Source: Chiloscyllium plagiosum (Eukaryota). From it: a stretch of DNA of 64,000 nucleotides. Of the stretch, positions 10,505 through 60,489 are shown one piece after another (within the stretch, counting starts at the first letter, position 1; each line of letters begins with the position of its first letter). The translations under genes were made by a program, and so were the position numbers. The stretch is taken from the NCBI RefSeq assembly GCF_004010195.1, contig NC_057718.1, positions 89,992,837 through 90,056,836 of the forward strand, in the 5' to 3' direction. A model generated the notes under the pieces. The model did not search any database. It had not been told where the DNA came from and worked only from the letters and a program-made list of their open reading frames with translations.

Positions 10505-10695
10505 TGTCCAAGTCTTTTGATCTATACATCCTGGCTTACTATGATCTGTTTGTACTAAAGCTTCTCACTGTACTTCAGTACACGTGACAATAAATAAATC
10601 AATCAAATTACTACCTTCTGAATATTGGGAAAGGTGTATTCTAACAAGTGCTGAAAGTGTAATTACTCACATCCGTGTCTTGTTTCTGGTTCTAG

Positions 10696-11420
10696 ATACC
10701 GACTCAAAGTACAGCCAAGAAGTGAAACAATTGCTCTATCCTTTATTTGTCTACCTCCACCTTGATATGGTTCACAGTGGTCTGAAGAGTGCAGCCGATA
10801 GTTTCTACAGTCGCTTTCATGGGATGTTCCTACAAAGTACGGACCAGAAGGACATCATGGAACAGCTCCGGACTACTCTGAATAGTCAGGACATTTATTC
10901 AAACTCCAAGCTGCGAAGCCTGACCGAAAATAAATATGTTCTTAGCCTTACTGAAGAAAGTTACAACTATCTCCTCCGCTACCTCCAGAGTGACAACAAT
11001 AGTGCTTTGTGCAAGGTTCTGGCCTCTCGTGTTCAGCTGGATGTGCAGTGTTCTCCACAGACAGGCTATCAGCTGTATAATGCCGGGACGCTATCTCGCA
11101 CCGAGGGGGTGGGCCTGGAGCCCTCTGAGCTACCCTCTACTATGTTGCAGAATGAAGCTGCGCTGGACATGTTGCAGGACAGCATAAAACGGGTAAAAGA
11201 TGGGCCTCCCTCCCTCACAACCATTTGTTTCTATGCTTTCCACAACACGGACCAGCTGCTCAATACTGCGGAAATTTCGCCGAACAATAAACTGCTCAGT
11301 GCTGGCTTTGATAACTCTTGCATCAAACTCTGGAGCTTGAGGGCGAAGAAACTCAAATATGGCCCACAGCAAGTGGACGTCTCTCGGATCAACCTCGCCT
11401 GTGACATCCTGGATGATGAG
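10696..11420 (+). CDS. TAF5L: TAF5L large internal coding exon (725 nt; NTD2 domain and first WD40 repeat)
   Basis: ttctggttctag acceptor and gtacaa donor; LLYPLFVYLHL..FYSRFHGMFLQ..IKRVKDGPPSLTTICFYAF..GFDNSCIKLWSLR matches TAF5L. Confidence 0.97.
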
Positions 11421-12452
11421 GTACAAAAGTGTTTCTGCTACCTGGGTTTTATGCTCATTGGCTAAATCCAGCAGTTAGTATCAAGTTGGACAGGTCTGTT
11501 GTTTAATACTTGGTCACTGGACAGATCTAAGAATTCAATTTTCATTTAATTTTGTTCTCCTGGAGTTCAACCCTTTTAACTCGTTCGTGTTCACAATAGA
11601 ACAAAGAAGCAACCATCTTACCATGCAGTCAGTAAGATGCATGAGGTGAATCACTCAAAGGACTCGCATGCGGGTTGCATTTCATGTTTCCAAGTCCGAC
11701 TACTTTGTTTAACATGAATTTCAAGAGGTTTAAAATATTTAGGGATTACTATTGCTGATGTTGAGGCTCCGATTTAATTGATGCAATCAATACCACAACC
11801 GGGTCTCCACTGACAGACCTTTTAACCTTTTCTTCCACATGTAATAATTTTACTTCAGCTGCAGTCAATTCAACATGGTTCTGTGTTGTAAAATACATAG
11901 TACGTTGGCCGGTGATCCACTCTGTGTGGATCTTAACACTATGCATTCAAGCTAGAAGGTCTCCATCACTCCTAACTCACTGACTTGGATAAAGGCACTG
12001 CGAGTTGTGATGGATTGGATTGAGGACATGCCGAGTGGATACTTTTTGTGTATACCATAGTTGGAAATGGGCCCGTTTTACTTGCTTGTCGTCCTGCACT
12101 TGTTCTGTAATCTGACTCTTATTTTTCCCTTTGCCAACAGTGCTTTCCAATGGTCCTTCCTTTGTCTATTTTTTCTTGGGTATTATTTAAGAAAAAATGT
12201 CTCCAAGTGTAGGCAGCTAAATTATCCCATGGCAAGTGTATGAAAAAGGCAGCTTGCAGAATGTGGAACCGACCCACTTTACAACATTCCTCTTTCACAT
12301 ACTTCAGTTCTGTCATCTTCCCAGCATTCCCTTATCTAACAGAGTCCTTCCCCTGTTTCCCTTAAACCTGGCTCACAGAGGAAATAAAGTTTGGCAATCC
12401 TACATTATGACCCCAAAGTTTGGCTTTGTTGACTCTTTTGATAACCCTTTGA

Positions 12453-16888: not shown

Positions 16889-17440
16889 GCATTTTTACAG
16901 AGGACAGGGTGGGAAGAGGTGTAATCTAGGTAGCTGTGGGAGTCAGTCGGTTTATAGTATACGTCCGTGTTGAGTCGGTCGTCCGAGATAGAGATGGAGA
17001 GGTCGTCTCAGACTCCTCCCTCCCCTTCCTAGACCTCTCCATCTCTATCTCGGACGACCGACTCAACACGGACGCATACTATAAACCGACTGACTCCCAC
17101 AGCTACCTAGATTACACCTCCTCCCACTCTGCCCCCTGTAAAAACGCCATCCCATATTCCCAATTCCTTCGCCTTCGCCGCATCTGCTCCCAGGAGGACC
17201 AATTCCAATGCCGAACAACCCAGATGGCCTCCTTCAAAGACCGCAATTTCTCCTCAGACGTGGTTGACGATGCTCTCCACGCATCTCCTCCGCCCTTGAA
17301 CCCCGCCCCTCCAATCGCCACCAGGACAGAACCCCACTAGTCCTCACCTACCACCCCACCAACCTCCATATACATCGTATCATCCGTCGTCATTTCCGCC
17401 ACCTCCAAACAGACTCCACCACCAGGGATATATTTCCCTC
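16889..17440 (+). mobile_element. Penelope-like element fragment with an inverted 5' duplication
   Basis: SLPFLDL..LNTDAYYKPTDSHSYLDYTSSH..CKNAIPYSQFLRLRRICS is the PLE RT thumb/linker; 16889-17004 is the reverse complement of 17032-17147. Confidence 0.85.
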
Positions 17441-17944: not shown

Positions 17945-18293
17945 AAAATTATGTCCCAATACATGTGTGAATCATAATGTAACACATGTATTGGGCCAAG
18001 CAGTGGAATGTGGTGAAACGGTTAAAAATTATGTCCCAATACATGTGTGAATCATAATGTAACACATGTATTGGGCCAAGCAGTGGAATGTGGTGAAACG
18101 GTTAAAAATTATGTCCCAATACATGTGTGAATCATAATGTAACACATGTATTGGGCCAAGCAGTGGAATGTGGTGAAACGGTTAAAAATTATGTCCCAAT
18201 ACATGTGTGAATCATAATGTAACACATGTATTGGGCCAAGCAGTGGAATGTGGTGAAACGGTTAAAAATTATGTCCCAATACATGTGTGAATC
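17945..18293. repeat. perfect 80-bp tandem repeat, about 4.4 copies, with a 14-bp hairpin per unit
   Basis: ATGTCCCAAT recurs at 17951, 18031, 18111, 18191 and 18271; CCCAATACATGTGT pairs with ACACATGTATTGGG. Confidence 0.97.
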
Positions 18294-18694: not shown

Positions 18695-18971
18695 CTTAGG
18701 AAAGGCACTTGTGTATGTCATGTTCTGAATGCTCATTTAGTGTACACGAGATCAAAAACAGAGGACAGTATAAGTGTGTGTGACCCTTACATCAGGCTAA
18801 TTTTGCTATCATGCTGTCAAGAGCAGTGTGAGATGTGTAAAACTCTTTAGAGGAGCATATTTGAAGAGAACATCTTTGCTGCTTGCTTACACACTTTATT
18901 GAAATTTACTGTTAATTATATCATTATATCAATGTTATTCATTGCTTTTGCAATTTTTTTCCCAAATGCAG

Positions 18972-19763
18972 GTGGAAGATGATGTGGGCAGTGAAATGAA
19001 AATACTACGAGGACACTGTGGGCCTGTGTATGCTACCAAGTTCCTCTCTGATAATTCAGGACTTCTGTCTTGTTCAGAAGACACAACAGTCCGATACTGG
19101 GATTTGTGCAGTTTCAAGAACACTGGTTTGTATCAAGGACATGTTTATCCCATCTGGGACATCGATATTAGTCCCTTGAGCCTTTACTTTGTGACTGGAT
19201 CACATGATCGGACAGCAAGACTTTGGGCACTTGACAGAACATACCCTCTACGCATTTACGCAGGCCACCTAGCAGATGTAGACTGTGTTAAGTTCCATCC
19301 AAATTCTAATTACATAGCCACAGGCTCAATAGATAAAACTGTGCGGCTCTGGAGTACGCAGCAAGGGAATACTGTCCGTCTCTTCACAGGACATCGGGGA
19401 CCTGTGTTGGCATTAGCTTTCTCTCCTAATGGAAAGTACTTGGCCTCAGCAGGTGAAGATCAGCGACTAAAGTTGTGGGACCTTGCATCAGGTACTTTAT
19501 TCAAAGAACTGAGAGGGCATACTGACAATATAACTAATCTTGCATTTAGTCCCGACAGCAGTTTGATAGTTTCTGCATCTGTGGATAATTCGGTCCGTGT
19601 GTGGGATATTTATAACACTTATTCAAATTCACTGGTGGATGGTTCCTCCAGTGAGCTGGTGGGTGTATACATGGGACCTACCAGCAACCTTTTGAGTGTG
19701 CAGTTCATGGCCTGCAATCTGGTCTTGGTTACTGGTGTTGCACAAGAGAAAAAGGAACAATAA
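18972..19763 (+). CDS. TAF5L: TAF5L last coding exon (WD40 repeats) with TAA stop
   Basis: Polypyrimidine tract and atgcag acceptor; [44 protein letters not shown] matches the TAF5L C-terminus. Confidence 0.98.
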
Positions 19764-39280: not shown

Positions 39281-39424
39281 CTTCACCATATCAAAAAGAC
39301 GGGGCTAAACAGGTTGTTCTGCAAGCATGGATTCGACAGATCGAATGACCTCCTCCAAGGTTGCATCACTGCAAAACTTTACAAAATGCGTTTGGTTTGC
39401 TTTGCAAATTCCACCTTAAGTCGT

Positions 39425-39722
39425 GATTTGGAGATGCCGGTGTTGGACTGGTTAAAAATCACACAACACCAGATTATTGTCCAACAGGTTTAATTGGAAG
39501 CTTTCGGAGCACTGCTCCTTCATTAGGTGGTTGTGGAGTATAATAGTGCTTCCAATTAAACCTGTTGGACTATTACCTGGTGTTGTGATTTTTAATTTTG
39601 TCCACCTTAAATGTTGAAAAATGTGTTGCTCCTGCTCCTTGGATGCTGCCTGACCTGCTGCGCTTTTTCAGCATCACATTTTTAAGCTCTAATCTCCAGC
39701 ATCTGCAGTCCTCACTTTCTCC
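39425..39722. mobile_element. tail-to-tail Penelope-like 3' ends
   Basis: ACAACACCAG..GTCCAACAGGTTTAATTGGAAGC is inverted against GCTTCCAATTAAACCTGTTGGAC..CTGGTGTTGT; degenerate hammerhead core on the minus strand at 39499-39528. Confidence 0.65.
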
Positions 39723-39744
39723 CACCTTAAATGTTCACCAGGAG

Positions 39745-39965
39745 ACAGGGAGGGGGCGCTGCTGCGGGAGGACCGGGCGGGAGGGGGCGCTGCTGCAGAA
39801 GGGTCGGGCAGCAGGGGGCGCTGCTGCGGGAGGACCGGGGCAGGAGGGGGCGCTGCTGCCGGAGGACCGGGCGGGAGGGGGCGCTGCTGCAGGCGGATCG
39901 GGCAGGAGGTGGCGCTGCTGCCGGAGGTCCGGGCTGAAGACGAGGGAGGGCGCTGTTACTGCTGC
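39745..39965. repeat. GC-rich minisatellite, unit about 31 bp, with a CTCF-like core
   Basis: About 7 units of GGAGGGGGCGCTGCTGC..GGAGGACCGG. Confidence 0.9.
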
Positions 39966-40213
39966 ACGGGCAGAGTGTCGGCGTCACCCGCAAATTAAAT
40001 GAGGCAGCGCTTCCTGAAATAATAATATTTCCAATTGGAATCTGATTATCCGTGAGAGGGAAACCGAGATCGTTCATTCGACGGTATTGCCTCGAAATAA
40101 ATCGAGGTAGGAGAGTGCCCCGAAGGGAAGAAGAGGCAGGATCTGGGAGAGTGTAGGCGGGGACCGTTCGGTAAAGGGGAGGGTCTGTGTCCGAATCCCA
40201 GGGGTGGGAATCA

Positions 40214-40440
40214 GCCGGTGTCCAAGGGCGGGGCGGAGCCTGTGTCCAATGGGCGGGGCGGAGCCTGTGTCCAAGGGGCGGGGCGAAGCCGGTGTCCAAG
40301 GAGCGGAGCCGGTATCCAAGGGGCGGGGCGAAGCCGGTGTCCAAGGGGCGGGGCGGAGCTGATGTCCAAGGGGCGGGGCGGAGCTGATGTCCAAGGGGCG
40401 GGACCTTTTGCCAGGACGGATACCGGAAGGGGCGGGGCCG
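40214..40440. repeat. minisatellite, unit about 25 bp, built of Sp1 GC boxes
   Basis: About 8 units of GAGCC(GG/TG)TGTCCAAGGGGCGGGGCG. Confidence 0.9.
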
Positions 40441-40492
40441 AGTCTGTGCTCGGGGTCACATGCGACCAGCCTGTGTTTGTTTGGGCCGCAGG

Positions 40493-40643
40493 ATGCAGCT
40501 GAAGGAGATTGTTCGCTGGAATGTCCGCGTGTCCCTTCTTTATGCCATTGGCATCTGGACCATGCTCGGCACCTATGGCTTCTTCCACCTGAAGAAGAAG
40601 CGGGAGCTGGCAGCGATCGAGAACAGCACCCAGGACTCGGCAG
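40493..40643 (+). CDS. SMIM26: small integral membrane protein 26, exon 1
   Basis: MQLKEIVRWNVRVSLLYAIGIWTMLGTYGFFHL resembles human MYRNEFTAWYRRMSVVYGIGTWSVLGSLLYY; donor CAG|GTAAGG, phase 1; DTD1 lies downstream as in mammals. Confidence 0.9.
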
Positions 40644-40645
40644 GT

Positions 40646-41146
40646 AAGGGCAAAGGTCACAACCTCCCACCCCGTGAAGGGCAAAGGTCACATCCTCCCA
40701 CCCCGTGAAGGGCAAAGGTCACATCTTCCCAACCCGTGAAGGGCAAAGGTCACATCCTCCCACCCCGTGAAGGGCAAAGGTCACATCCTCCTACCCCATG
40801 AAGGGCAAAGGTCACATCCTCACACCCCATGAAGGGTAAAGGTCTCATCCTCCCACCCTGTGAAGGGCAAAGGTCACAACCTCCTAACCCCGTAAAGGGC
40901 AAAGGTCACATCCTTCTATCCCCATGAAGGGCAAAGATCACATCCTCCCACCCCTGTGAAGGGCAAAGGTCACGTCCTCCCATCCTGTGAAAGCCAAAGG
41001 TCACAGCCTCCCACCCCGTGCAGGGAAAAGGTCATCCTCCCACCCTGTGCACAGCAAAGGTCAGTTTGTGCAGGGCAAAGGTCATTCCCTCCCACTCCGT
41101 GGAGGGTAAAGGTTACCTCCCCACCCCATGCAGGGTAAAGGTCACT
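40646..41146. repeat. 30-32-bp minisatellite, 17 units, filling most of the SMIM26 intron
   Basis: Unit GAAGGGCAAAGGTCACATCCTCCCACCCCGT. Confidence 0.95.
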
Positions 41147-41267
41147 GGCTGGCTGCTACCTTCCCCCCCATTGTAGGAAAAAGGTGACGGATGAAGGCCC
41201 TGATATGTTTTAGCATTGTTGGCCTTGCTTTTACATTAAATAAAGGTTAACTTTGTTTTTTTTTCAG

Positions 41268-41437
41268 CAGTCACTTACCAAGAGGAGATCAGTTTGGAAC
41301 CTCAAAAACAAGTTACCAAAGAATTTGTGGAGACAAAAGTTGTTGCAAAGGAAGGTTTTGTTCCCTTTTCATTCAGAATCTACAAATATGGGAAATCTCT
41401 CTTTGGTGTTTCATCTGATACTTCAATAGAGAAGTAG
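41268..41437 (+). CDS. SMIM26: SMIM26 exon 2 with TAG stop (protein about 106 aa)
   Basis: Poly-T tract and CAGCAG acceptor; EFVETKVVAKEGFVPFSFRIYKYGKS resembles human FYVETVVTYKEDFVPNTEKILNYWKS; in frame with exon 1. Confidence 0.9.
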
Positions 41438-42491
41438 AGTTCAGAACAATAACTAACGCAGGTGATACTGCTAGGGAGTTCATGCTTCAGTTTTCTTATG
41501 GACAATGAGGATTTCTCTACGTGCCCCCAATTTGTACAGTTGCTTTGGATGGTGTAGACTGTGCTTAAGTGCCTAGTGTCTATGATCTATTGAGCCTCAT
41601 TTGATCTATTATTTTGAAGACTATGTATCAGTTTCTAATGGACAGTGTCTGTACATCTACATTTTTTGCACAGTGGGACATCAGTAGCATTTTGAGAGAA
41701 TTCAGCTATTTTTAAATTATGGGGGAAATTTGTTTCCAAACAACTGAAGGCTTTACCATGCCACATTTTTGTACTTACATAGTCAACTCCAGAATACTTT
41801 TTTGCATGTGCAAACACATTGTTTCTTCTTCCTTTCTTCCACAACTGCTCTGGAATCAATCAACAGGTTGGAGTGGCTGATATGATTGATCCTCTTTATC
41901 CAGCCGGCTTTAGCTTTTCAAAAATGTGGTTATATTCTGGAAAGTGAACTGGTGAAGGATTGTGCTGGATCAAATCTTTCCTCAAACGTACCTTTTATTT
42001 ACAGAGTGAAAAATCTACAATCTCCGAACACAAGCACACACCGCTTCAATAAGTCTCTTTATATGTGTTCAAGTGAAACTCCATTTTAAAACCACTGATG
42101 GGGTAAAATTGACAATGAAGACCCAATCTAGAAGTAGGTTTAATGCATTATTTTCATGACTTGAGTTATGTATTATACAAATTCATTGTCACTATTTACA
42201 TGCATGTTTTGTGTTGGACATATGAATCAGCAGGTTGGGAGCAGATTAAAACTAAACTGATGTATTTTACTGCCATTGTAGTGAACCTTCACTTTGAAAG
42301 AAGGATTGATATGATTATTGTGACTTTGCAAGATGCATGGGAATTTTAAATGATTGCTGTTCATTAATTTAGGACTGTATAAAACTAACCCTGTTCCAGG
42401 AGTTTGAAGATTCACCATTGGGTTTAGATTCCACCTGATTGGGAATGAGACTTGATCTGATTATGTATTAGTTGTGTTGATATTGTTAACT

Positions 42492-58572: not shown

Positions 58573-60489
58573 GTCAGTCTGCATTCGTGTGACTTTTATT
58601 TGGGGAGTAGAGGGAGGTGGCGGCGAGTGGGGTTTTGTTTTTGTGTGTATGTGTGTGTGTTAGCATTATTAATTCATAGGGTGCTGTCACAAAGCAGAGG
58701 CCGGGTCCGGGTGCTGGGAGCTGGGAGGTGGATTCGGAATGGTCCGCTGTGGGTTACACTGAAGCGTTACATAGTAGCAACTGCACAAAGCAGACAGCTC
58801 CGCTACATGTCAAGCGCAGCGATGTCCCTTCCGCGTTCGAGAGGGAGAGCCTCTGTCTCTTCCGGCTGAGCCTGTATTTACAAACTGCAGCCTACACACC
58901 CACATACACACACAGAGGGAGAGAAACAGACACCTTATGTCTGGCACCTATTGTTCATCAGCATCAGCTCCAACAACACACTCTCACAGCCCCTCTCTCT
59001 CCAACAACACACTCTCAGACAGCACAGCCCCTCTCTCGCTGTATGATCAGAAACGTGCTCCTTTAGCAATCATGGATGCATTTATATTCATTTCCCCACT
59101 CTGCCTGTTTCAGGGATGTTACTGCACACCACCTCCAGGATTTGGACCCAGGTCTTTTCCAGCACCACTCTTATCTAGACTCTCCTCGGTCAGAGACAGG
59201 GGACATTACCACTGCACCTACTTCTACGGTTGAATGGGGATATCTGCTTTCCAGTAGCACCTTCCCTCCCCGCCCCCCCCCCCCCCCAAACAAATTGGGG
59301 TGTGCGACAAGCTTTTCCAGACATTTTTTCTTAATATCTTGACCCATCCCACTCTGCTCTCCTCAGACATTATCAGATGAACCACAGCCAACACCTCACC
59401 CACATTTTAGTTTTCAGTCGCTGGAATTTATTTGGAAAAAATTAGCCACGTTGAGTCAGAAGAAAATGATCAGTGACAAAATTTCCAGGAAACAGTACTC
59501 AAGGCCTTTGGGTGGGGGTGTAGGGGCGGAAAACAAAGAGACTTGCATTTGTATAGCCACCTCTCATGCCCACAGGGTGTCCCAATGCTCCCTGCGGCCA
59601 GTGAGGCACTTTTGCGACAGAGTCACTGTTGTAATGTAGCAAACGTGGCAGTCAGTTTGGGCACTGCAAGCTCCCACAGACAGCGGAATGGTACACTGTC
59701 CTGGCTGGCACCCACTTTGGCTATCCGAGTTGGTTCTGTTTTCATCTCATGGCATTTAGAAAACAGAGGTTGATAGTTCACACTGTCTAGACTGCCAGTG
59801 TGTACACAAGACAATTTGTGGGATCAAACCTTCCTCTGTTGGTGTGTGTGTGTATATAACAATAAGAATGACATGATTTTAAATCAAGATGCAGTATGGG
59901 CCGGGCGTTGGCAGGTGGGACTAGATTGGGTTGGGATATCTGGTTGGCATGGACAGGTTAGAGCGAAGGGTCTGTTTCCGTGCTGTACATCTCTATGACT
60001 CTATCTGAAGGATTTAAATACAAAGCATGATATTGACCTTTATGGTGAATGAGAAATCTTGTCCTTAATAAGATTCCGCCCTTGAGGTTATTTGGTCTAC
60101 AATGTAGATTTTACTGGACTGTTGGGATTTCGTGACAATCAAAGTACTCTGGATGCTGGAAATCTGAAATAAAATGTGACAGGTCTGGAGAGATGAACTG
60201 AGTTGAATTTTCGAATTGACCATGATACATTCAGAACTGAGATGTCACCACCTCACCACTCTTTGCAGTGTCTGGTGTCAATCAGTTATTGGTCTTGCTG
60301 GGGATGAAGGCGTCCTGGTGAAAGAGAGATCCTGTGAGCGAGGTGGTAATGAGGGTGAGGTTTGTGGTCATGGGATTGCTGGTGATGTTTGGGTCTAGTG
60401 CATTAACCAGAGGAAGAGTTACAAAACATGACGATGAGGAATCTGGATGTTTTCCCAATTGGTTGCACTGGAGATGCTCTTAACTATAG

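What the first reader, a model, noticed from the sequence alone, without database searches (positions are those of the whole stretch)
39745..41146. Promoter built from three unrelated motif-bearing minisatellites (CTCF-like, Sp1, DR1)
Seen: within 1.4 kb, three separate VNTRs with unrelated units bracket SMIM26 exon 1, in the order insulator-like, core-promoter-like, enhancer-like. No comparable minisatellite cluster occurs elsewhere in the window. Inference: either factor-bound open chromatin promotes local tandem amplification of bound sites, or selection retains tunable modules. Either would be an unusual promoter architecture.
Basis: partly seen in the sequence, partly recalled or inferred. 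Interest (0 to 1): 0.7.

Follow-up and report, generated by a model that had tools for sequence, protein, structure and literature searches.

The report
Three minisatellites in shark SMIM26 promoter
Three unrelated short tandem repeats fill two-thirds of the start region of a bamboo-shark SMIM26-like gene, each copying a word that resembles a transcription-factor site; they likely grew by local duplication inside the gene's CpG island, a kind of repeat already known from human genes, and no regulatory role is shown.

Summary
The three arrays are real: 31 bp x ~7, 25 bp x ~8 and 31 bp x ~17. Their units are unrelated, they are single-locus, and they cluster beyond chance in the window's only clear CpG island. 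The CTCF-like array overlaps the transcript's 5' end, the GC-box array lies inside intron 1, and the DR1 array starts exactly at the intron 2 donor. Against shuffled units the CTCF-like and GC-box matches are modest (P about 0.01 each); only the DR1 (P 0.0004 or less) stands out. Motif columns are slightly better kept among units (combined P 0.05), but another genome's allele breaks two CTCF cores. Copy-number variation and factor binding are not shown. Best reading (0.6): local tandem duplication in the island's non-coding parts, carrying along existing motifs. Selected regulatory modules stay possible (0.25). Motif-bearing promoter and intron minisatellites are known in human. Unchecked earlier notes of this scan report single arrays of this kind at other genes in this genome, none a triple.

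The parts
39410..39737 (.). Two adjacent high-copy insertions, bounded by three copies of the same 9-base word (likely target-site duplications), directly upstream of array 1
   Evidence: Word at 39411, 39602, 39722 (D4); 40-nt inverted arms at 39462-39587 (I1); contig depth 10^5-10^6 in X1 over 39500-39820
39551..40750 (.). CpG island, the only extended one in the window
   Evidence: 500-bp windows with GC >= 0.55 and CpG o/e >= 0.65 start at 39551-40251; one isolated window at 16901 lies in a repeat-like stretch
39745..39960 (+). Array 1: 31-bp unit, 6 full copies plus one degenerate, each with a CTCF-core-like word in one orientation; overlaps the transcript 5' end
   Evidence: Spanned at equal length by X1 contig 39701-40241; RNA-like contigs begin at 39870 (X9) and 39928 (X13)
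39870..40106 (+). Exon 1, non-coding in this window (5' limit is the furthest contig end, not a mapped start site)
   Evidence: Joint 40104/40490, GT..AG, in X9 and X13; gene model P0007 has an N-terminal extension matching this exon's frame
40107..40491 (+). Intron 1 (385 nt), G-run rich
   Evidence: 25 runs of 3 or more G, 65 per kb against 10.5 per kb in the window
40213..40440 (+). Array 2: 25-bp unit, about 8 copies plus degenerate flanks, one or two GC boxes per unit; lies inside intron 1
40492..40643 (+).
   Evidence: 50 of 50 residues identical to the protein named SMIM26-like isoform X1 of Chiloscyllium punctatum; both splice joints
40644..41146 (+). Array 3: 31-bp unit, about 17 copies, with a DR1 nuclear-receptor-type 13-mer; unit 1 begins at the GT of the intron 2 donor; 3' units degenerate
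   Evidence: exact DR1 pattern in 10 of 17 units and 0 times elsewhere in the window
41268..42339 (+). Exon 3: rest of the coding sequence (stop 41435-41437) and 3' UTR; tandem CAGCAG acceptor
   Evidence: shark isoforms of 106 and 105 aa differ by one residue here

Best explanation
The three arrays are real, single-locus minisatellites at the transcript's 5' end, in intron 1 and at the start of intron 2 of a shark SMIM26-like gene, and they likely arose by three independent local tandem duplications of 25-31-base non-coding pieces of the CpG island, each carrying along the factor-like word it already held. Shown: positions, unit independence, single-locus status, confinement to non-coding DNA, sequence polymorphism within arrays, intact CpGs in arrays 1 and 2 and decayed CpGs in distal array 3. 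Inferred: growth by slippage or unequal exchange and homogenisation by conversion in germline-open, GC-skewed DNA; purifying selection stops growth at exon 2 and keeps one good splice donor. The unmethylated GC-box and CTCF-like copies are probably bound to some degree and may help keep the island open, but copy number is probably not finely selected.
For: Units are unrelated and absent elsewhere: X1 depth over the arrays is 2.5-19 against 3.4-10 in unique flank and 10^5-10^6 in the upstream repeats; 12 of 12 window matches to the array 3 unit lie in array 3. Clustering coincides with the only extended CpG island. Arrays spare exon 2 and the 146-nt unique part of exon 1; array 3 begins at the donor GT and 0 of the 16 later units keep GTAAG. 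Turnover: the X1 allele has 9 differences in 363 nt of array 3 against 9 in 1168 nt of flank (Fisher P 0.02). CTCF-like and GC-box matches occur in 1.0% and 0.7% of 5000 dinucleotide shuffles of the unit, unremarkable once many G-rich motifs are allowed. Two of 3 X1 substitutions in array 1 hit the CTCF-like GGC core. Junction CpG in array 3 is intact in 4 of the first 4 junctions and 3 of the last 12; CpG o/e 0.79, 0.84, 0.32, 0.15 along the arrays. Human VNTRs are enriched in CpG islands, 1-kb upstream regions and TFBS clusters (10.1101/2020.11.03.367367, passages).
Against: All three arrays carry a textbook word. The DR1 is hard to get by chance (0-2 of 5000 shuffles) and shares 13 bases with the APOC3 HNF4 oligo (PMC2374721 table). 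Motif columns are better kept than other columns in all three arrays (combined P 0.049 for full motifs; 0.009 for post-hoc cores). The X1 variants rest on one contig at depth 4.35, which the tool flags as possibly erroneous. No shared structural trigger was found: G4 propensity is high in arrays 1 and 2 but not 3, and folding z-scores are -1.56, +3.95 and +0.88. There is no genome-wide baseline for how often shark CpG islands hold several arrays (no genome held).
Confidence: 0.6

Rival explanations
1. Selected homotypic regulatory modules. CTCF copies at the island edge shield it from the repeat-dense upstream DNA, Sp/KLF copies in intron 1 keep it unmethylated and active, and DR1 copies in intron 2 give an HNF4/PPAR/RXR-type boost; copy number tunes expression.
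For: Array 1 abuts two high-copy insertions; all its CTCF-like words point one way and 3 of 8 scored sites fit a recalled 15-base CTCF consensus exactly. DR1 P 0.0004 or less. Motif columns better kept. Precedent for functional motif clusters in tandem repeats, with motif class conserved while units differ (PMC13373173, passages), and for CTCF sites scaling with repeat size (10.1101/2022.03.17.484784, passages).
Against: No single array shows significant motif conservation (P 0.07-0.42). Two CTCF cores are broken in the X1 allele. Distal DR1 units show CpG decay typical of methylated DNA. Expression looks housekeeping-like: 33-67 units in all six bamboo-shark fin stages (PMC7932699 supplement row) and wide in human (PMC8395196). 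Motif scans alone predict CTCF binding poorly (PMC5504073).
Confidence: 0.25
2. Arrays 2 and 3 matter at the RNA level. The G-runs of array 2 act as intronic splicing enhancers for a short GC-rich intron with a weak pyrimidine tract, and array 3 is a donor-adjacent repeat whose copies lost the donor; the DNA motif resemblance is incidental.
For: Array 2 lies in a 385-nt intron with 25 G-runs (65 per kb against 10.5) and a GT-rich acceptor; array 3 starts at the donor. That G-runs enhance splicing is recalled, not from a call.
Against: G-run density follows automatically from a GC-box unit. It does not explain array 1. No splicing test was possible; X22 gave 0 laid reads.
Confidence: 0.1
3. Assembly expansion or artefact.
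For: The assembly has gaps (784 N). No listed contig spans arrays 2 or 3 completely.
Against: Units are 80-85% alike, and 244 of 246, 246 of 258 and 502 of 533 31-mers are distinct. X1 contigs are colinear over all of array 1 and over 40807-41169 of array 3 without gaps inside those arrays. X1 may be the assembly's own sample, so it is not fully independent.
Confidence: 0.04

Closest known systems
Human promoter VNTRs carrying TF sites (XRCC5 Sp1 VNTR, TPMT, SLC6A4, INS, HRAS1; seen as introduction text and reference titles in 10.1101/2020.11.03.367367)
   Same: Minisatellite units in or near a CpG-island promoter that repeat a factor-binding word
   Different: Those have shown copy-number variation and, for several, functional tests; usually one array per promoter. 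Here there are three unrelated arrays and neither variation nor function is shown.
MORC3-restricted tandem repeats with homotypic SPI, AP-1 or SP/KLF motif clusters (IFNB1-MRE; PMC13373173, abstract and passages)
   Same: A tandem repeat as the means of accumulating copies of one motif; intronic location; slippage proposed as origin
   Different: The MRE is a distal repressed enhancer with up to 45-61 motifs and cross-species conservation of motif class. These arrays hold 6-17 units at an active promoter, and conservation is untested.
CTCF-site tandem repeats (HRNR VNTR, passages; Dxz4, search listing and abstract start only)
   Same: Same-orientation CTCF-like words repeated in tandem
   Different: Binding and chromatin folding effects are predicted or shown there; array 1 is 0.2 kb, overlaps a transcript 5' end and only 3 of 8 scored sites fit the consensus exactly.
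Splice-donor minisatellites (human F7 intron 7 type; known to me from earlier scan notes and recall, paper not read here)
   Same: Array 3 begins exactly at an intron's first base and the first donor is the one used
   Different: Later units carry no exon end and no GTAAG, so they are not full decoy donors.

Membership tests
Minisatellite | Head-to-tail copies of a 10-100 bp unit | tested here: met
   Periods 31, 25, 31; 6-17 copies
VNTR | Copy number differs between alleles or individuals | tested here: inconclusive
   X1 contigs are colinear over array 1 and over 40807-41169. One X9 contig (depth 4.5) fits 40987-41118 while its first 94 letters do not continue colinearly, hinting at another unit order; 29 joints were not displayed.
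CpG-island promoter | 500 bp or more with GC >= 0.55 and CpG o/e >= 0.65 | tested here: met
   Windows from 39551 to 40750
CpG-island promoter | Overlaps the transcription start | tested here: inconclusive
   Spliced contigs begin at 39870 and 39928; contigs cannot fix a start site and the raw-read run gave 0 laid reads
CTCF insulator array | Core motif match | tested here: met
   Recalled 15-base consensus: 3 of 8 scored sites exact, 2 with one mismatch, 3 with two; the consensus unit's match is reached by 1% of shuffles
CTCF insulator array | CTCF occupancy and boundary activity | not testable with these tools
   No ChIP or Hi-C access
Sp/KLF proximal promoter element | GC boxes present | tested here: met
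   5 exact 10-mers in array 2, 0 elsewhere in the window
Sp/KLF proximal promoter element | Located at or upstream of the transcription start | tested here: not met
   Array 2 starts 107 nt inside intron 1, at least 340 nt downstream of the furthest transcript 5' end
DR1 nuclear-receptor response element | Two AGGTCA-like half-sites spaced by one base | tested here: met
   10 of 17 units exact for the recalled pattern; 13 bases shared with the APOC3 HNF4 oligo
DR1 nuclear-receptor response element | Receptor binding and enhancer activity | not testable with these tools
   None available
Splice-donor (F7-type) minisatellite | Array begins at the exon/intron junction | tested here: met
   Unit 1 starts at 40644, the donor GT
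Splice-donor (F7-type) minisatellite | Each unit repeats the exon end and donor consensus | tested here: not met
   0 of 16 later units have GTAAG; no exon bases in the unit
Transposon-borne or dispersed repeat | Many similar copies elsewhere in the genome | tested here: not met
   Near single-copy contig depth over the arrays at 88% likeness against 10^5-10^6 over the upstream insertions
Classic hypervariable (chi-like core) minisatellite | Match to the 16-base core listed in PMC9069542 | tested here: not met
   5-7 mismatches, P 0.30-0.85 against shuffles; the chi-like 8-mer is exact only in array 1, P 0.08
SMIM26 gene family | Protein similarity and gene structure | tested here: inconclusive
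   Hits are six shark proteins, five named SMIM26-like; no mammalian hit and no Pfam family. The tandem 3-nt acceptor matches human SMIM26 isoforms. The upstream neighbour is TAF5L-like.

The most novel reading that the evidence does not exclude
In sharks, germline-open CpG-island promoters are birth sites of minisatellites, and factor-bound words preferentially seed or survive the amplification. One possible driver is recombination directed to promoters, since no cartilaginous-fish PRDM9 with the complete domain set was available in PMC5519329. This gene's 5' region would then have been two-thirds rebuilt from three homotypic modules (CTCF boundary at the start site, intronic Sp/KLF block, intronic DR1 enhancer) that work together and tune expression by copy number.
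Probability: 0.15. Interest if true: 0.65.

Novelty: new member of a known kind. Interest (0 to 1): 0.3.

Why it matters
As it stands this is an unusually dense example (three unrelated arrays, 68% of 1.4 kb) of a known phenomenon, in a lineage where promoter repeats have hardly been described. It gives a compact test case for whether tandem repeats amplify bound sites preferentially or merely copy whatever lies in a CpG island. That question can be settled with existing shark genomes plus CTCF ChIP or ATAC data. If motif classes prove conserved across sharks while the units turn over, it would show promoters being rebuilt from repeats under selection.

Tried and rejected
No whole genome is held, so the genome-wide enrichment test and any cross-species DNA comparison were not run.

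Rfam: 0 matches in the window. Pfam: no family for the SMIM26-like exons or proteins.

No RNA holder was listed as such. The raw-read RNA run X22 gave 0 laid reads from about 6% of the run, which is no test. Only 4 of 24 listed runs were laid.

Common origin of the three units: rejected. Transposon origin: rejected by depth. Chi-like minisatellite core: not above shuffles. G-quadruplex as a common driver: fits arrays 1 and 2 (50% and 27% of 25-mers at |G4Hunter| >= 1.2 against 1.7% in the window) but not array 3 (1%). Hairpins as a common driver: no array folds significantly better than shuffles (array 3 folded for its first 297 nt only).

Conservation test: units 14 and 17 of array 3 were dropped as partial. 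Units were cut at the motif, which can bias towards motif conservation. Two 5-base deletions that remove a GC box in array 2 were not counted.

The ATAC-seq passages in PMC7932699 concern mouse limb buds, so they give no shark open-chromatin evidence. Two papers sought by DOI, on shark CTCF ChIP-seq and on the CTCF-DNA structure, were not held. The CTCF, GC-box and DR1 patterns used are therefore recalled consensus strings, not matrices.

Literature searches for a prior description: 1 unrelated paper; 5 papers; 15 of 62 listed; 1 unrelated. None described this promoter by title or abstract start; the library is partial. The scan's own look-ups near this place and in relatives were empty.

Full report
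Observation. Tandem Repeats Finder reports three arrays in the stated interval: 39749-39934 (31 bp, 6.0 copies), 40213-40402 (25 bp, 7.8 copies) and 40646-41063 (31 bp, 13.5 copies; to 41145 and 16.5 copies with laxer settings). Unit-by-unit alignment gives 6 full units plus a degenerate one, about 8 units, and 17 units. The consensus units are no more alike than shuffles (0.60, 0.45, 0.56; P 0.6-1.0). Together they cover 68% of 39745-41146. The window holds one other substantial array (80 bp x 4.4 at 17945-18293). The chance that 3 of 4 random arrays start within 900 bp is 0.0025. The cluster coincides with the only extended CpG island in the window (39551-40750), so the absence of a similar cluster elsewhere is not an informative control.

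The gene. The coding exon at 40493-40643 is identical over 50 of 50 residues to a protein named SMIM26-like isoform X1 of Chiloscyllium punctatum. The last exon differs from it at three residues. The near-length search returned six proteins, all from sharks. The upstream gene has TFIID_NTD2 and WD40 exons, that is TAF5L-like. I laid 4 of 24 listed runs. Contigs of X9 (organism A) and X13 (organism B) each show two GT..AG joints, 40106/40492 and 40643/41268, and begin at 39870 and 39928, each with 22 further letters that were not placed. An older gene model (P0007) has an N-terminal extension that follows the exon 1 frame across the same junction. Array 1 overlaps the transcript's 5' end, array 2 is inside the 385-nt intron 1, and array 3 begins at the first base of intron 2. 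Contigs cannot fix the start site, and the raw-read run X22 gave no laid reads. The tandem CAGCAG acceptor gives 106 and 105 aa shark isoforms, as human SMIM26 has two isoforms differing by 3 nt at its second exon (PMC8395196, passages). A supplement row of PMC7932699 gives SMIM26 values of 33-67 in all six bamboo-shark fin stages.

Are the arrays real and variable? In DNA run X1 one contig (39701-40241) spans array 1 at the same length with 3 substitutions. Another (40807-41169) is colinear with the 3' part of array 3, with 9 substitutions in 363 nt against 9 in 1168 nt of flank (Fisher P 0.02). X1 may be the assembly's own sample. Nearly all 31-mers in the arrays are distinct, which argues against assembly expansion. 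No listed contig spans array 2 or array 3 whole. One low-depth X9 contig fits 40987-41118 but its first 94 letters do not continue colinearly, a tentative hint of another unit order. 'VNTR' is therefore unproven. Depth over the arrays (2.5-19) is near single-copy, against 10^5-10^6 over the two insertions just upstream, so the units are locus-specific and not carried by a transposon.

Are the motifs more than chance? The patterns are recalled consensus strings. Against 5000 circular dinucleotide shuffles of each consensus unit, the CTCF 15-mer (one mismatch) is reached in 1.0%, the 10-base GC box in 0.7% and the DR1 in 0-0.04%. With tens of G-rich motifs to choose from, the first two are unremarkable, and CpG-island promoters are rich in both (established knowledge). 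With a few hundred motif families the DR1 stays at a few to about ten percent (my arithmetic). It shares 13 bases with the APOC3 HNF4 oligo (PMC2374721 table; also listed as a PPAR site in PMC10604751) and occurs 0 times outside the array. Its first bases overlap the splice donor in unit 1, which lowers the surprise a little. Among units, motif columns carry fewer distinct changes than others: 5/15 against 8/16, 2/10 against 5/15 and 7/13 against 19/18 columns, with P 0.33, 0.42 and 0.086. Combined this is 14 against 20.0 expected, P 0.049, or P 0.009 for post-hoc cores. Caveats are the anchoring of units at the motif, two partial units dropped, and two GC-box deletions not counted. Against selection, 2 of the 3 X1 substitutions in array 1 change the GGC of the CTCF-like core, on a single contig of depth 4.35.

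Chromatin clues. CpG o/e is 0.79 in array 1, 0.84 in array 2, 0.32 in proximal and 0.15 in distal array 3. The junction CpG of array 3 is intact in the first 4 of 4 junctions and in 3 of the last 12, replaced by CA or TG. This is the pattern expected if arrays 1 and 2 are unmethylated in the germline and distal array 3 is methylated (inference). None of the 16 later units of array 3 keeps GTAAG, and both RNA-like runs use the first donor. No common structural trigger emerged: G4 propensity, hairpin folding and the chi-like core each fail for at least one array.

Mechanism. The best reading (0.6) is three independent local duplications in the non-coding parts of one CpG island, limited by exon 2 and the splice signals, each copying a word that was already there. 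Some binding is likely where the DNA is unmethylated, but tuning by copy number is not indicated. Selected homotypic modules (0.25) remain open because of the DR1, the conservation trend and the position of array 1 against repeat-dense DNA. An RNA-level role for the intronic arrays (0.1) and artefact (0.04) are less likely.

Comparison with what is known. Human minisatellite VNTRs are enriched in CpG islands, upstream regions and TFBS clusters, and several promoter VNTRs carry factor sites (10.1101/2020.11.03.367367, passages). Tandem repeats with homotypic SPI, AP-1 and SP/KLF clusters act as regulated enhancers, and slippage is proposed as their origin (PMC13373173, passages). Predicted CTCF sites scale with HRNR repeat size (10.1101/2022.03.17.484784, passages). 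The CTCF motif is conserved to lamprey, but motif scans alone predict binding poorly (PMC5504073, passages). Species without functional PRDM9 recombine at promoters and CpG islands, and some cartilaginous fish lack its SSXRD domain (PMC5519329, passages); a link from hotspots to minisatellite turnover is recalled, and bamboo-shark PRDM9 was not examined. Searches showed no description of this promoter. Earlier notes of this scan, unchecked here, report single promoter-proximal arrays elsewhere in the same genome: a CCAAT array near DNAJC27 and donor arrays in GIPC1 and EMILIN1. If right, they make a general tendency of this genome more likely than a special design at this gene. Supplements of the bioRxiv preprints could not be seen and may hold enrichment figures relevant to the baseline.

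Verdict. A real and dense cluster, a corrected gene model, and a new member of a known kind with no function shown. Interest 0.3.

Noticed in passing
window 17945-18293: 80-bp unit x 4.4 copies, 100% identical and AT-rich, between the two large TAF5L-like exons; either very recent or an assembly duplication.
   Followed up: no
window 10545-11465 and 18903-19763 (+): Large exons of a TAF5L-like gene (TFIID_NTD2 and WD40) lie upstream of SMIM26-like. From recall, human SMIM26 has other neighbours, so synteny may differ.
   Followed up: partly
window 41268-41273: Tandem CAGCAG acceptor giving 106 and 105 aa isoforms in sharks; human SMIM26 also has two isoforms differing by 3 nt at the equivalent exon, suggesting a very old alternative acceptor.
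   Followed up: partly
window 39870-40106: Non-coding first exon, whereas human SMIM26 has two exons by RT-PCR. A C. punctatum gene model reads an 18-residue in-frame extension from it, whose start codon is not present in this window; one upstream ATG lies at 39999.
   Followed up: partly
window 39410-39737: Two adjacent high-copy insertions (one with 40-nt inverted arms, one SINE/LINE-end-like) at the same 9-base target word, right against the promoter.
   Followed up: partly
window 58700-59040: Mildly GC/CpG-raised stretch with a small two-copy 31-bp repeat (58968-59037); possibly another promoter or first exon, below CpG-island thresholds.
   Followed up: no
window 39870 and 39928 (contigs of X9 and X13): Both transcript contigs carry exactly 22 unplaced letters beyond their 5' ends. 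If these are library adapters the positions would be true cDNA ends inside array 1; the letters were not displayed.
   Followed up: no
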